A stretch of DNA of 64,000 nucleotides from the human T2T-CHM13v2.0 reference genome, Homo sapiens. The notes under the pieces were generated by a model. That model ran no database searches, was not told the origin of the DNA, and saw only the letters and a program-made list of their open reading frames with translations. Both the position numbers and the translations under genes were made by a program. The stretch lies in the NCBI RefSeq assembly GCF_009914755.1, contig NC_060947.1; one strand, given 5' to 3'. This document shows, one piece after another, positions 1-64,000 of the stretch (positions are counted from its first letter, which is position 1; the number at the start of each line of letters is the position of its first letter).

Positions 1-252
1 TAGACAAAGAAGGCCATTACATAATGGTAAAGGGATCAATTCAACAAGAAGAACTAACTATCTTAAATATATATGCACAAAATACAGGAGCACCGAGATT
101 CATAAAGCAAGCCCTTAGAGACCTACAAAGAGACTTAGACTCCCACACAATAATACTGGGAGACATTAACAACCCACTGTCAACATTAGACAGATCAATG
201 AGACAGAAAGTTAACAAGGATATCCAGGAATTGAACTCAGCTCTGCACCAAG
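1..252 (+). mobile_element. L1PA ORF2 endonuclease-domain fragment (continues left of window)
   Basis: Translates [29 protein letters not shown]...ELNSALHQ (L1 ORF2p EN); switches to minus-strand L1 at ~252. Confidence 0.9.
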
Positions 253-2714
253 AATCCTTTCCCCATTGCTTCTTTTTGTCAGGTTTGTCAAAGATCAGAT
301 GTTTATAGATGTGGTGGTATTATTTCTGAGGGCTCTGTTCTGTTCCATTGGTCTATAACTCTGTTTTGGTACCAGTACCATGCTGTTTTGGTTACCGTAG
401 CCTTGTAGTATACTTTGAAGTCAGGTAGTGTGATGCCTCCAGCTTTGTTCTTTTGGCTTAGGATTGTCTTTGCACTGAGGGCTCTTTTTGGTTCCATATG
501 AACTTTAAAGTAGTTTTTTCCAATTCTGTGAAGAAAGTCATTTGTAGGTTGATGGGGACGGCATTGAATCTATAAATTACCTTAGGCAGTATGGCCATTT
601 TCACGATATTAATTCTTCTATCCATGAGTATTCAATGTTCTTCCATTTGTTTGTGTCCTCTTTTATTTCGTTGAGCAGTGGTTTGTAGTTCTCCTTGAAG
701 AGGTCCTTCACATCCCTTGTAAGTTGGATTCCTAGGTATTTTATTCTCTTTAAAGCAATTGTGAATGGGAGTTCATTCATGATTTGGCTCTCTGTTTGTC
801 TTTTACTGGTGTATAAAAATGCTTGTGATTTCTGCACATTGATTTTGTATCCTGAGACTTTCTGAAGTTGCTTATCAGCTTAAGGAGATTTTGGGCTGAG
901 ACGATGGGGTTTTCTAAATATACAATCATGTCAACTACAAACAGGGACAATTTGGCTTCCCATTTTCTAATTGAATACCCTTTATTTCTTTCTCTTGCAT
1001 GATTGCCCTGGCCAGAACTTCCAACACTATGTTGAATACGAGTGATGAGAGAGAGCATCCCTGTCTTGTGCCAGTTTTCAAAGGAAATGCTTCCAGTTTT
1101 GCCCATTCAGTATGATATTGGCTGTGGGTTTGTCATAGATAGCTTTTATTATTTTGAGATACGTCCCATCAATACTTAATTTATTGAGAGTTTTTAGTAT
1201 GAAGGGTTGTTGAATTTTGTCAAAGGCCTTTTCTGCATCTATTGAGATAATCATGTGGTTTTTGTCTTTGGTTCTGTTTATATGCTGCAATATGTTTATT
1301 AATTTGCGTATGTTGAACCAGCCTTGCATCACACGGATGAAGCCCCTTGATCATGGTGGATAAGCTTTTTGATGTGCTGCTGGATTTGGTTTGCCAGTAT
1401 TTTATTGAGGATTTTTGCATCAGTGTTCATCAGGGATATTGGTCTAAAATTCTCTTTTTTTGTTGTGTCTCTGCCAGGCTTTGGTATCAGGATGATGCTG
1501 GCCTCATAAAATGACTTAGGGAGGATTCCCCCTTTTTCTATTGATTGGAATAGTTTCAGAAGGAATGGTACCAGCTCTTCCTTGTAGCTCTGGTAGAATT
1601 TGGCTGTGAATCTGTCTCTTACTGGGCTTTTTTTTGGTTGGTAGGGTACTAACTATTGCCTCAATTTCAGAGCCTGTTATTGGTCTATTCAGGGATTCAA
1701 TTTCTTCCAGGTTTAGTCTTGGGAGGGTGTATGTGTCAAGGAATTTGTCCATTTATTCTAGATTTTCTAGTTTATTTGCATAGAGGTGTTTATAGTATTC
1801 TCTGATGGTAGTTTGTATTTCTGTGGGATCAGTGGTGATATCCCCTTTATCATTTTTTATTGCATCTATTTGATTATTCTATTTTCTTCTTTATTAGTCT
1901 TGCTAGTGGTCTATCAATTTTGTTGATCTTTTCAAAAAACAAGCGTCTGGATTCATTGATTTTTGAAGGATTTTTTGTGTCTCTATTTCCTTCAGTTCTG
2001 CTCTCATCTTAGTTATTTCTTGCCTTCTGCTAGCCTTTGAATATGTTTGCTCTTGCTTCTCTAGCTCTTATCATTGTGATGTTAGGGTGTCAATTTTAGA
2101 TCTTTCCTGCTTTTTCTTGTGGGCATTTAGTGCTATAAATTTCCCTTTACACACTGCTTTCGTTTTGTCCCAGAGATTCTGGTGTGTTTTGTCTTTGTTC
2201 TCATTGGTTTCAAAGAACATCTTTATTTCTGCCTTCATTTCGTTATGTACCCAGTAGTCATTCAGGAGCAGGTTGTTCAGTTTCCATGTAGTTGAGCGGT
2301 TTTGAATGAGTGTCTTAATCCTGAGTTCTAATTTGATTTCACTGTGGTCTGAGAGACAGTTTCTTGTAATTTCTGTTCTTTTACATTTGCTGAGGAATGC
2401 TTTACTTCCAACTATGTGGTCAATTTTGGAATAAGTGCGATGTGGTGCTGAGAAGAATGTATATTCTGTTGAATTGGGGTGGAGAGTTCTGTAGATGTCT
2501 ACTAGGACCGCTTGGTGCAGAGCTGAGTTCAATTCCTGGATATCCTGGTTAACTTTCTGTCTCATTGATCTGCCTAATGTTGACAGTGGGGTGTTAAACT
2601 CTCCCATTATTATTGTGTGGGAGTCAAAGTCTCTATGTAGGTCTCTAAGGACTTGCTTTATGAATCTGGCTGCTCCTGTATTGGGTGGATTTATATGTAG
2701 GATAGTTAGCTCTT
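252..2714 (-). mobile_element. L1PA element 'A', internal ORF2 segment (EN to post-RT), frameshifted
   Basis: Fragmented ORF2p ORFs 2071-2607, 1516-1752, 1078-1332, 601-837, 303-497; older-type motifs CTTAGAGACC and GATATCCAGG (about L1PA5, from memory). Confidence 0.9.
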
Positions 2715-62615: not shown

Positions 62616-62911
62616 GTGATATTGTGAAATATATATTTGCTCTTTGATCTCCTTTTCTGGCATACAGCCCCTAAAACCCTTGAAGTATCCTGAGAGATAA
62701 GAGTGTCTTTTGTATGCTAATAAGATGACTGATGATTGGCAGCCCCTAGATAGCTTCAGGATGTGGGCTGTTCACGGCAAAGACCAGGGCATGATTAGAA
62801 GATTGGAGCAGAGAGGAGTTAAAGGTTGAATCGATCACCAATGGCTCATGATGTCTACATAATGAAGCCTTCATAAGAACCCAAAATAACAAGGTTAAGA
62901 GAGCTTTGGAA
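62616..62911 (+). mobile_element. MER21B-like LTR, cut by L1
   Basis: TGTGATATTGTGAAATATATATTTG..CCCCTAGATAGCTTCAGGATG. Confidence 0.75.
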
Positions 62912-64000
62912 GCATATCTAGAACTATATGATCTTTGACAAACCTGACAAAAACAAGCAATGGGGAAAGGATTCCCTATTTAATAAAAGGTGCTGGGAAA
63001 ACTGGCTAGCCATATGTAGAAAGCTGAAACTGGATCCCTTCTTTACACCTTATACAAAAATTAATTCAAGATGGATTAAAGACTTAAATGTTAGACCTAA
63101 AAACCATAAAAACCCTAGAAGAAAACCTAGCCATTACCATTCAGGACACAGGCATGGGCAAGGACTTCATGTCTAAAACACCAAAAGCAATGGCAACAGA
63201 AGCCAAAATTGACAAATGGGATCTAATTAAACTAAAGAGCTTCTGCACAGCAAAAGAAACTACCATCAGAGTGAACAGGCAACCTACAGAATGGGAGAAA
63301 ATTTTCGCAACCTACTCATCTGACAAAGGGCTAATATCCAGAATCTACAATGAACTCAAACAAATTTACAAGAAAAAAACAAACAACCCCATCAAAAAGT
63401 GGGCAAAGGACATGAACAGACACTTCTCAAAAGAAGACATTTATGCAGCCAAAAAAACACATGAAAAAATGCTCACCATCACTGGCCATCAGAGAAATGC
63501 AAATCAAAACCACAATGAGATACCATCTCACACCAGTTAGAATGGCAATCATTAAAAAGTCAGGAAACAACAGGTGCTAGAGAGGATGTGGAGAAATAGG
63601 AACACTTTTACACTGTTGGTGGGACTGTAAACTAGTTCAACCCTTGTGGAAGTCAGTGTGGTGATTCCTCAGGGATCTAGAACTAGAAATACCATTTGAC
63701 CCAGCCATGCCATTACTGGGTATATACCCAAAGGACTATAAATCATGCTGCTATAAAGACACATGCACATGTATGTTTATTGCGGCACTATTCACAATAG
63801 CAAAGACTTGGAACCAACCCAAATGTCCAAAAATGATAGACTGGATTAAGAAAATGTGGCACATATACACCATGAAATACTATGCAGCCATAAAAAATGA
63901 TGAGTTCATGTCCTTTGTAGGGACATGGATGAAATTGGAAATCATCATTCTCAGTAAACTATCGCAAGAACAAAAAACCAAACACCGCATATTCTCACTC
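62912..64000 (+). mobile_element. Young L1PA2/3-like element 'E', 5'-truncated (continues right of window)
   Basis: ORF2 C-terminal region; young-type AAGGACTATAAATC and GAAATTGGAAATCATCATTCTCAGTAAACT; frameshifts present. Confidence 0.92.

What the first reader, a model, noticed from the sequence alone, without database searches (positions are those of the whole stretch)
252..64000. Five independent L1 copies share private mutations, including stop codons, in a mosaic pattern: local concerted evolution of L1s
Seen: L1 copies A (252-2714), B (2715-7248), C (13565-18656), D (35377-38500) and E (62912-end) share changes that the other local copies lack, and the partner changes along the element. 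A+B: GCATCACAC (1326/5054), ATGACTTA (1511/5238), ATATGTAGG (G at 2697/6433). B+C: a TAG stop in GACACAAAATAG (5917-5919/16760-16762), KWSLF, NIIMN, NRTED, CCAGAAAA(A)TCTACAAG. C+D: a TGA stop in TGGGATTGA (14575-14577/37482-37484), AFLSTNN, TITSKR, NWIAI, KNGEF, GAACGTCAC. B+C+D: KATLT, CCCCATCCAAAA. B+D: DLHVR. D+E: GTGCTAGAGAGG. B+C+D+E: ENLA where I recall ENLG as consensus. Established: an L1 with ORF2 nonsense codons is a poor source element (cis preference), and these copies have different insertion sites, orientations and subfamily markers. Inference: repeated non-allelic gene conversion among L1s 3-60 kb apart, in both orientations, at a density that looks unusually high.
Basis: partly seen in the sequence, partly recalled or inferred. 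Interest (0 to 1): 0.8.

Follow-up and report, generated by a model that had tools for sequence, protein, structure and literature searches.

The report
Neighbouring L1 copies exchanged rare mutations
Old L1 retrotransposon fragments lying next to each other near SPIN3 on the human X chromosome carry the same very rare mutations, most likely because they copied short stretches from one another after insertion, a known process (non-allelic gene conversion) seldom documented for L1.

Summary
The sequence facts hold. The copies are separate L1PA insertions of 3-4 subfamily steps.

Whole-genome exact counts settle how private the variants are:
- Three two-base haplotypes occur only in one adjacent local pair: A+B, B+C with the TAG, C+D. 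The common form of the A+B site occurs 6,664 times.
- Three more two-base haplotypes occur 3-4 times, two of them local.
- The haplotype of a dispersed control pair occurs 407 times.
- The TGA stop is not private: 22 copies of very different ages carry it.
- ENLA, KATLT and the single-base variants occur 28-128 times.
- E's sharing is within chance.

No single tree fits. A shares with its physical neighbour B, not with C or D, which are nearer to it in subfamily order.

Best reading: old, short, patchy non-allelic gene conversion between neighbouring L1s (confidence 0.7). C and D could instead be sister copies.

The density is not shown to be unusual. The same six variants pair up within 50 kb elsewhere in the genome 18 times against about 0.2 expected. 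This is a known kind of process.

The parts
252..2711 (-). L1 copy A: an internal ORF2 piece and the oldest of the five (50% old-type states at diagnostic sites). It abuts B's poly(A).
   Evidence: Self-BLAST; mapping on C coordinates 1368-3847; subfamily ladder.
2712..7248 (-). L1 copy B: 5'-truncated, about 4.5 kb, poly(A) at 2712-2727, 18% old-type states.
13565..18656 (-). L1 copy C: it starts at the L1 5' end and has an internal deletion of about 1 kb near 17938-17942. A 13-bp target-site duplication CAGGTAGTGAGTC lies at 13550 and 18657. 26% old-type states.
35377..38500 (+). L1 copy D: 5'-truncated, 3.1 kb, opposite orientation to A-C, same subfamily step as C (27% old-type states).
62912..64000 (+). 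L1 copy E: the youngest (6% old-type states), cut by the window end. Its sharing (4001C, 4444A) is within chance.
1322..1345 (-). A side of the A+B two-base haplotype (C pos 2761G/2764T, 'GCATCACAC'). The B side is at 5050-5073.
   Evidence: Only 2 genome hits, both here; the common form has 6,664 hits.
5908..5931 (-). B side of the B+C haplotype 1906A/1910G, which holds the TAG stop (5917-5919). The C side is at 16751-16774 (TAG 16760-16762).
   Evidence: Only 2 genome hits, both here; TAG alone has 40 hits.
15374..15397 (-). C side of the C+D haplotype 3284C/3286C (AFLSTNN). The D side is at 36660-36683.
   Evidence: Only 2 genome hits, both here.
14776..14800 (-). C side of the C+D haplotype 3877A/3882T (NWIAI). 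The D side is at 37259-37283.
   Evidence: 3 genome hits, 2 here; the third copy is of an older subfamily.
14960..14979 (-). C side of 3701A/3705C (KATLT). D is at 37078-37097. B carries 3705C only, at 4120-4139.
   Evidence: The two-base form has 3 genome hits, 2 here. 3705C has 59 hits, 3 here.
16324..16348 (-). C side of the B+C haplotype 2326C/2337C (CCAGAAAATCTACAAG). The B side is at 5475-5500.
   Evidence: 4 genome hits, 2 here; the two others are older-subfamily copies.
14566..14589 (-). C side of the TGA double change (stop at 14575-14577). The D side is at 37470-37493 (stop 37482-37484). This is a recurrent change, not private.
   Evidence: 22 genome hits on 14 chromosomes (20 outside the window on 14 chromosomes) in L1s 76-94% identical to C.
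14662..14683 (-). 4001C (ENLA) in C. Also in B at 3820-3841, D at 37376-37397 and E at 63117-63138.
   Evidence: 70 genome hits, 4 here. It is absent from 39 dispersed copies covering the site and from the 20 fetched of the 40 best genome hits to that segment.

Best explanation
After these L1PA copies had inserted independently, DNA breaks in one copy were repeatedly repaired using a neighbouring copy on the same chromosome as template. This is non-allelic (interlocus) gene conversion, that is, synthesis-dependent repair followed by mismatch correction. Short patches were copied, and mutations that had arisen in one copy, including the TAG nonsense change, moved into its neighbour.

The exchanges link A with B (abutting), B with C (about 11 kb between homologous sites) and probably C with D (about 22 kb, inverted). 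They are old and patchy, and later mutations have blurred the tracts.

Shown here: the sharing is local, rare genome-wide and mosaic. Inferred: the repair mechanism, its timing, and a possible boost from X hemizygosity in males.
For: 1. **Rarity genome-wide.** Exact 24-mers of three two-base haplotypes occur only in one local pair each: A+B, B+C, C+D. Three more occur 3-4 times with 2 local. The common form at the A+B site occurs 6,664 times.
2. **Control.** The two-base haplotype shared by a dispersed pair (L006 on chr5, L037 on chrX) occurs 407 times, so it is a true subfamily marker.
3. **Not a small sub-family.** The four outside carriers fetched (L061-L064) share only that one haplotype, plus TGA in L062. 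L062-L064 belong to older subfamilies.
4. **Excess sharing.** Sites shared but absent from 27 dispersed copies run at A-B 2.02/kb, B-C 1.83/kb and C-D 2.89/kb. For 344 dispersed pairs the mean is 0.158/kb and the 99th percentile 1.31/kb. Of the local copies' panel-absent variants, 56 of 411 are shared locally, against 69 of 1,335 for dispersed copies.
5. **Mosaic pattern.** 26 panel-absent shared sites fall in partitions AB 5, AC 4, AD 1, BC 5, BD 2, CD 6, BCD 2, BCDE 1. No single tree fits them.
6. **Physical order beats age order.** The subfamily order is A > C = D > B > E (old-type states 50, 26, 27, 18, 6%). Yet A shares its rare transversions with the abutting B, not with C or D.
7. **Low-frequency single variants.** 3705C, 4001C and 4260C have 59, 70 and 128 genome hits, yet all of B, C and D carry them.
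8. **Local identity.** B-C identity within 25 bp of shared sites is 0.952, against a null of 0.923 (P=0.006).
9. **Independent insertions.** C has a 13-bp target-site duplication. Truncation points, flanks and orientations differ, and self-BLAST homology ends at the L1 ends.
10. **Precedent in print.** Conversion between Alus is reported as elevated within 10 kb and on the sex chromosomes (PMC6598467 and PMC8230782, passages citing Aleshin & Zhi 2010). A per-site conversion rate of 2.5e-7 per generation is estimated for gene duplicates (10.1101/135152, abstract).
Against: - **No tract-like signal for two pairs.** Identity within 25 bp of shared sites is 0.870 for A-B (null 0.905) and 0.941 for C-D (null 0.937).
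- **No unusually long identical runs.** The longest are 85-119 bp, with P from 0.04 to 0.94.
- **No continuous A-B tract.** Within 2476-2764, A keeps old-type states at 2633 and 2661 where B has the young ones. Patches would have to be well under the 250-bp mean in print.
- **Very tight tract ends.** Some must lie within 3-4 bp: 3701 against 3705 in B, and 4001 against 4004 in E.
- **Weak break-point signal.** The test for C against B and D loses significance once D's hypermutated 5' end is left out (P=0.11).
- **No GC bias.** Weak-to-strong 8 against strong-to-weak 10 among shared sites, versus 107 against 158 among private ones.
- **Heavy tail in the null.** Some dispersed pairs also share several panel-absent sites: A-L033 6, C-L001 7, L006-L037 8.
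- **No direct test.** No orthologous ape sequence was available, so it is not shown that the variants arose after insertion.
Confidence: 0.7

Rival explanations
1. C and D are sister copies. Either both descend from one rare, defective source element, or D is a truncated retrocopy of C. On this reading their shared rare variants were inherited rather than exchanged. It covers only the C-D part of the pattern.
For: - C and D sit on the same subfamily step, with nearly identical old/young profiles.
- Their shared rare variants are spread over the whole 3.1-kb overlap, from 2040 to 4914.
- Local identity around these sites is not raised.
- C-D divergence is lower than B-C or B-D: 71 mismatches against 118 and 107 in 3300-4950.
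Against: - Two of at most three carriers of each haplotype lie 22 kb apart. L1 is not known to reinsert locally (my own knowledge).
- In 2360-3300, C-D is no closer than B-C or B-D: 73 against 79 and 71 mismatches in 940 bp.
- C carries five rare variants shared with B that D lacks: 2326C, 2337C, 2826G, 2985A, 3148G. Exchange is therefore still needed.
- It cannot explain A-B or B-C, which belong to different subfamily steps.
Confidence: 0.25
2. The shared changes are independent recurrences at mutational hot spots. These would be templated or quasi-palindrome double substitutions and ordinary recurrent single-base changes that happened to hit neighbouring copies.
For: - The TGA double change is present in 22 copies of very different ages.
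- 3877A/3882T perfects a quasi-palindrome and also occurs in an older-subfamily copy on chr1.
- Single variants each occur 28-128 times.
- Dispersed pairs share 0.16 panel-absent sites per kb on average.
- This is enough to explain E's sharing and the one or two sites of A-C, A-D and B-D.
Against: - A change carried by 2-4 copies, where the common form at the A+B site is carried by 6,664, has a chance of about 1e-4 to 5e-4 of also sitting in a given neighbour. Six such haplotypes do so here.
- B, C and D all carry three variants with frequencies of roughly 1-2%.
Confidence: 0.06
3. The copies are local DNA duplicates of one another (segmental, tandem or inverted duplication) and share what the ancestor carried.
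For: - A abuts B in the same orientation.
- Local clusters of the same rare variant elsewhere could partly be segmental duplications.
Against: - Homology stops at the L1 ends.
- C has its own 13-bp target-site duplication.
- Truncation points and subfamily steps differ.
- A is equally distant from B, C and D, at 90.3%.
Confidence: 0.03
4. The sharing is an assembly or polishing artefact that copied bases between paralogous L1s.
For: None found here.
Against: - The pairs are only 90-93.5% identical, with mismatches within a few bases of the shared sites. That does not look like a collapsed or mis-polished stretch.
- Reads were not available to check.
Confidence: 0.02

Closest known systems
Non-allelic gene conversion between neighbouring Alu elements (Aleshin & Zhi 2010, known to me only through PMC6598467 and PMC8230782, passages read)
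   Same: Non-diagnostic mutations are shared preferentially by copies a few kb apart. The effect falls with distance and is reported as stronger on the sex chromosomes. Copies become mosaics.
   Different: - The elements here are L1 fragments of 1-5 kb and of different subfamily steps.
- The distances are 4-22 kb.
- The evidence is one locus plus a rough genome-wide count, not a full survey.
- My four searches found no paper in the held library doing the same survey for L1.
Interlocus gene conversion between gene duplicates and segmental duplications (Harpak et al., 10.1101/135152, abstract read)
   Same: Sequence is transferred one way between nearby paralogues. The rate is higher than point mutation and slows as the copies diverge until they 'escape'. 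That fits old events with no recent tracts.
   Different: - The mean tract in print is 250 bp with a strong GC bias. Here the patches look much shorter and no GC bias is seen.
- The paralogues here arose by retrotransposition, not by duplication.
L1PA subfamily (diagnostic-site) structure
   Same: Many sites shared by A/C/D or B/C/D are ordinary old-versus-young diagnostic states (147 sites). A dispersed pair's shared haplotype has 407 copies.
   Different: The haplotypes at issue have 2-4 copies genome-wide and do not fit the ladder.
Short template-switch or quasi-palindrome mutation clusters (recalled from the literature, not read here)
   Same: The TGA and 3877A/3882T double changes look like single templated events that recur in unrelated copies.
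   Different: Recurrence explains how such changes arise, not why two neighbours carry them.

Membership tests
Non-allelic gene conversion between dispersed repeats | Paralogues share variants that the rest of the family lacks | tested here: met
   Exact k-mer counts give 2 of 2, 2 of 2, 2 of 2, 2 of 3, 2 of 3 and 2 of 4 hits local. The common form has 6,664 hits.
Non-allelic gene conversion between dispersed repeats | Mosaic pattern: partitions incompatible with one tree, with the partner changing along the element | tested here: met
   Partitions AB 5, BC 5, CD 6, BD 2, BCD 2 are interleaved along the element. The maximum chi-square break for C against B and D has P=0.001, but P=0.11 without D's 5' end.
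Non-allelic gene conversion between dispersed repeats | Contiguous tracts with raised identity around the shared variants | tested here: inconclusive
   Raised for B-C (0.952 against 0.923, P=0.006), not for A-B or C-D. No long identical runs. A-B diagnostic sites break a continuous tract.
Non-allelic gene conversion between dispersed repeats | Dependence on physical proximity | tested here: met
   A shares with abutting B (5 sites), not with C (2 substitution sites) or D (1), although C and D are nearer in subfamily order. Elsewhere there are 18 same-variant pairs within 50 kb against about 0.21 expected. The number of local pairs is small.
Non-allelic gene conversion between dispersed repeats | State change after insertion, seen in orthologous loci of other species | not testable with these tools
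   No primate genome other than this one is held.
Non-allelic gene conversion between dispersed repeats | GC-biased transmission | tested here: not met
   Shared sites: weak-to-strong 8, strong-to-weak 10. Private sites: 107 and 158. Power is low with 24 sites.
L1 sub-subfamily (source-lineage) marker | Variant carried by many dispersed copies that also share the other markers | tested here: not met
   0-2 outside carriers per haplotype. The four inspected share none of the pair's other variants except TGA in L062. The control marker has 407 copies.
Segmental duplication | Homology extends into the flanks, with shared end points | tested here: not met
   Self-BLAST homology ends at the L1 ends. 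C has its own target-site duplication.

The most novel reading that the evidence does not exclude
Short-patch conversion between neighbouring old L1 copies is pervasive across the human genome, not a quirk of this locus. For six rare L1 variants, same-variant pairs within 50 kb outside the window number 18, against about 0.2 expected. The two pairs and the one X-linked triple inspected are separate insertions, not segmental duplicates.

If general, roughly one rare L1 variant in ten would be second-hand. That would bias L1 ages and subfamily calls. It would spread nonsense mutations among neighbours. It might be stronger on the X: 15 of 56 copies of 3705C lie there.
Probability: 0.4. Interest if true: 0.6.

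Novelty: new member of a known kind. Interest (0 to 1): 0.4.

Why it matters
L1 copies are widely used as neutral clocks and as subfamily markers on the assumption that each copy mutates on its own after insertion. This locus shows that neighbours a few kb to about 20 kb apart can share second-hand mutations, including stop codons. A shared 'private' mutation is therefore not proof of a common source element.

The rough genome-wide count suggests the effect is general. It could now be measured properly with complete genomes. For the SPIN3 locus itself nothing functional follows.

Tried and rejected
- **Genome-wide sub-subfamily.** Rejected for six haplotypes by exact counts and by inspecting the outside carriers L061-L064.
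- **TGA as a lineage marker.** Rejected. The 20 outside carriers range from 73 to 94% identity to C and share no other C+D variants.
- **An apparent miss by the pattern search.** L028 seemed to carry TGA. It was an alignment artefact caused by an insertion in L028.
- **One search was wasted.** The k-mer held a 1-bp deletion private to C. It was redone.
- **Clustering and transversion bias.** Shared variants might have been odd in these respects. They are not: private variants are equally clustered (19-50% within 5 bp) and equally rich in transversions.
- **Recent tracts.** None found.
- **Combined 3705C + 4260C haplotype.** I tried to count it with a long-gap pattern. By eye, none of the autosomal 3705C places lies next to a listed 4260C place. 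L071 on the X has both, which chance allows.
- **Aleshin & Zhi 2010.** Not held.
- **Subfamily names.** No Dfam consensus was available, so names such as L1PA5 or L1PA6 are not assigned. Only a relative ladder is given.
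Full report
**1. What is there**

The window (human T2T chrX, near SPIN3) holds five L1PA fragments:
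- A, 252-2711, minus strand.
- B, 2712-7248, minus strand.
- C, 13565-18656, minus strand.
- D, 35377-38500, plus strand.
- E, 62912 to the window end, plus strand.

Pairwise identities run from 90.1% (A-C) to 95.2% (D-E).

C begins at the L1 5' end and carries a 13-bp target-site duplication. It lacks about 1 kb that full-length copies have. B and D are 5'-truncated at different points and have their own A-rich tails. I found no target-site duplication for them. Homology between copies stops at the L1 ends, so they are not segmental duplicates.

At 147 sites that separate older from younger dispersed copies, the share of old-type states is A 50%, C 26%, D 27%, B 18%, E 6%. The age order is therefore A > C = D > B > E. 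That differs from the physical order A, B, C, D, E.

**2. The observation**

Both stops lie in the frame of neighbouring ORF2 peptides (arithmetic). The common state at the ENLA site is indeed G.

**3. Are the shared changes private?**

The whole genome can be scanned for exact patterns, and the tool states that its counts are whole.

Two-base haplotypes:
- A+B (C pos 2761G/2764T): 2 hits, both local. The common form has 6,664 hits.
- B+C (1906A/1910G, the TAG): 2 hits, both local. TAG without 1906A has 40 hits.
- C+D (3284C/3286C): 2 hits, both local.
- C+D (3701A/3705C): 3 hits, 2 local.
- C+D (3877A/3882T): 3 hits, 2 local.
- B+C (2326C/2337C): 4 hits, 2 local.
- C+D TGA: 22 hits, 2 local.

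Single-base variants:
- 3705C: 59 hits, 3 local.
- 4001C: 70 hits, 4 local.
- 4260C: 128 hits, 3 local.
- 3148G: 28 hits, 2 local.
- 2579G: 46 hits, 2 local.
- 2985A: 85 hits, 2 local.

As a control, I counted a two-base haplotype shared by two dispersed panel copies (L006 on chr5, L037 on chrX). It has 407 hits, which is what a real subfamily marker looks like.

**4. Is there a hidden small sub-family?**

I fetched the four outside carriers of the near-private haplotypes (L061-L064).
- L061 shares only 3701A/3705C.
- L063 and L064 share only 2326C/2337C.
- L062 shares 3877A/3882T and also TGA.
- L062-L064 belong to older subfamilies.

These are sporadic recurrences, not relatives of the local copies.

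The 20 outside TGA carriers span 73-94% identity to C and share no other C+D variant. The TGA double change is therefore a recurrent event. 3877A/3882T turns CTAG|CCAT into the perfect palindrome ATAG|CTAT, which is the signature of a templated double change.

**5. How much sharing does chance give?**

I projected 40 dispersed copies on C coordinates. Twenty are the outside TGA carriers. Twenty are from the best 40 genome hits to a B segment. I then counted sites where two copies share a base that is absent from 27 'young' dispersed copies.
- 344 dispersed pairs: mean 0.158/kb, 99th percentile 1.31/kb.
- Local pairs: A-B 2.02/kb (5 sites), B-C 1.83/kb (8), C-D 2.89/kb (9), B-D 1.60/kb (5), A-C 1.61/kb (4, two of them indel columns), A-D 0.54/kb.

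The null has a heavy tail from subfamily structure: L006-L037 8 sites, L001-L033 7, A-L033 6, C-L001 7. One chr20 pair 384 kb apart shares 14.

Of the local copies' panel-absent variants, 56 of 411 (13.6%) are shared with another local copy. For dispersed copies, each compared with four random dispersed copies, the figure is 69 of 1,335 (5.2%).

So the one or two single sites of A-C, A-D and B-D, and both of E's shared sites (4001C, 4444A), are within chance. The two-base haplotypes and the excess in A-B, B-C, C-D and B-C-D are not.

**6. Pattern along the element**

The 26 panel-absent shared sites fall into AB 5, AC 4, AD 1, BC 5, BD 2, CD 6, BCD 2, BCDE 1. With the sites they interleave as follows:
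- AB at 1390.
- BC at 1906-2337.
- AB at 2476-2764.
- BC at 2826-3148.
- CD at 3284 onward.

No single tree fits. A shares five rare transversions with its abutting neighbour B. It shares only two transitions with C and one with D, although C and D are nearer to A in subfamily order. Sharing thus follows physical proximity rather than time of insertion.

**7. Tracts**

This is the weak side of the case.
- There are no unusually long identical runs (longest 85-119 bp, P 0.04-0.94).
- Identity within 25 bp of shared sites is raised for B-C (0.952 against 0.923, P=0.006). It is not raised for A-B (0.870 against 0.905) or C-D (0.941 against 0.937).
- Diagnostic sites 2633 and 2661 break any continuous A-B tract.
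- A break-point test for C against B and D gives P=0.001. That depends on D's hypermutated first 360 bp, and without it P=0.11.
- C-D is closer than B-C or B-D in 3300-4950 (71 against 118 and 107 mismatches) but not in 2360-3300 (73 against 79 and 71).
- No GC bias is seen.

The events, if conversions, were old, short and patchy.

**8. Elsewhere in the genome**

For six variants (4001C, 3705C, 3148G, 2579G, 2985A, TGA), 295 carriers lie outside the window. They form 18 same-variant pairs within 50 kb. About 0.21 are expected if carriers were a random draw from L1 copies. The expectation is rough. It rests on the spacing of the first 100 common-form copies on chromosome 1.

I inspected two such pairs (chr12, chr5) and one X-linked triple.
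- In all of them homology ends at the L1 ends.
- In the chr12 pair the 5' truncation points also differ.
- The copies are 89-96% identical.
- They share 1-5 panel-absent variants.

They look like this window, not like segmental duplicates. How many of the other pairs are duplications is unknown.

**9. Explanation**

The best-supported reading is non-allelic gene conversion between neighbouring L1 copies after insertion (confidence 0.7). Rarity, locality and mosaicism are shown. The mechanism and its timing are inferred.

C-D sharing alone could also be common descent. Some items are recurrent mutations: TGA, E's sites and a few singles. Duplication and assembly error are unlikely.

**10. Known or new**

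Conversion between neighbouring Alus within about 10 kb, stronger on the sex chromosomes, is in print (passages in PMC6598467 and PMC8230782 citing Aleshin & Zhi 2010, which I could not read). For gene duplicates a per-site rate of 2.5e-7 per generation, a 250-bp mean tract and slowing with divergence are reported (10.1101/135152, abstract).

PMC8230782 states that most work on conversion between transposable elements concerns Alu. My four searches turned up no L1 survey in the held library, but subscription journals are largely missing from it.

The finding is therefore a new member of a known kind.

Noticed in passing
window 14575-14577 (C) and 37482-37484 (D); loci L001-L020: The double change GATCTAATT to GATTGAATT, which creates a TGA in ORF2, recurs in 22 L1 copies whose identity to C ranges from 73 to 94%. 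The new ATTGA repeats a motif 12 nt upstream, which suggests a recurrent templated double substitution.
   Followed up: partly
window 14785-14799 (C), 37260-37274 (D); L062: 3877A/3882T converts the quasi-palindrome CTAG|CCAT into perfect ATAG|CTAT. The only other carrier in the genome (chr1, older subfamily) also carries the TGA change 215 bp downstream.
   Followed up: partly
window ~17938-17942: C lacks about 0.95-1.07 kb (5'UTR/ORF1 region) that full-length dispersed copies have. It still keeps the L1 5' start and its target-site duplication.
   Followed up: partly
window 1-252 and 252-2711: A plus-strand L1 piece (C pos 1335-1582) abuts the minus-strand copy A (C pos 3847-1368). The L1 coordinates overlap on opposite strands, so this is a rearranged or inverted L1 and not the simple twin-priming layout.
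   Followed up: partly
window 35377-35740: The first ~360 bp of D are far more diverged from every other copy than the rest of D (for example 43 mismatches in 263 bp against B).
   Followed up: no
genome-wide: Carriers of the same rare L1 variant cluster locally in many places. Examples: chr11 14.72-14.98 Mb (5 copies of 3705C), chr11 8.58-8.60 Mb (3 copies of 4001C), chrX 75.00-75.01 Mb (3 copies). In all there are 18 pairs within 50 kb against about 0.2 expected.
   Followed up: partly
genome-wide: Some rare variants are over-represented on the X outside the window: 3705C 15 of 56, and 2985A 16 of 83 plus 3 on the Y. Others are not: 4001C 3 of 66, TGA 1 of 20.
   Followed up: no
L025 and L039 (chr20 25.39 and 25.78 Mb): Two L1 copies 384 kb apart near the chr20 centromere share 14 panel-absent variants in 3.5 kb, the highest value among the 'dispersed' pairs. 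This is probably a duplication or another case of exchange.
   Followed up: no
window 20388-25126: A much older L1 (about 65-69% identical to A-D) lies between C and D. Several Alu-sized repeats, 76-87% identical to each other, lie at 21682-22821, 27880-28200, 33137-33477, 45901-46217 and 51656-51993.
   Followed up: no
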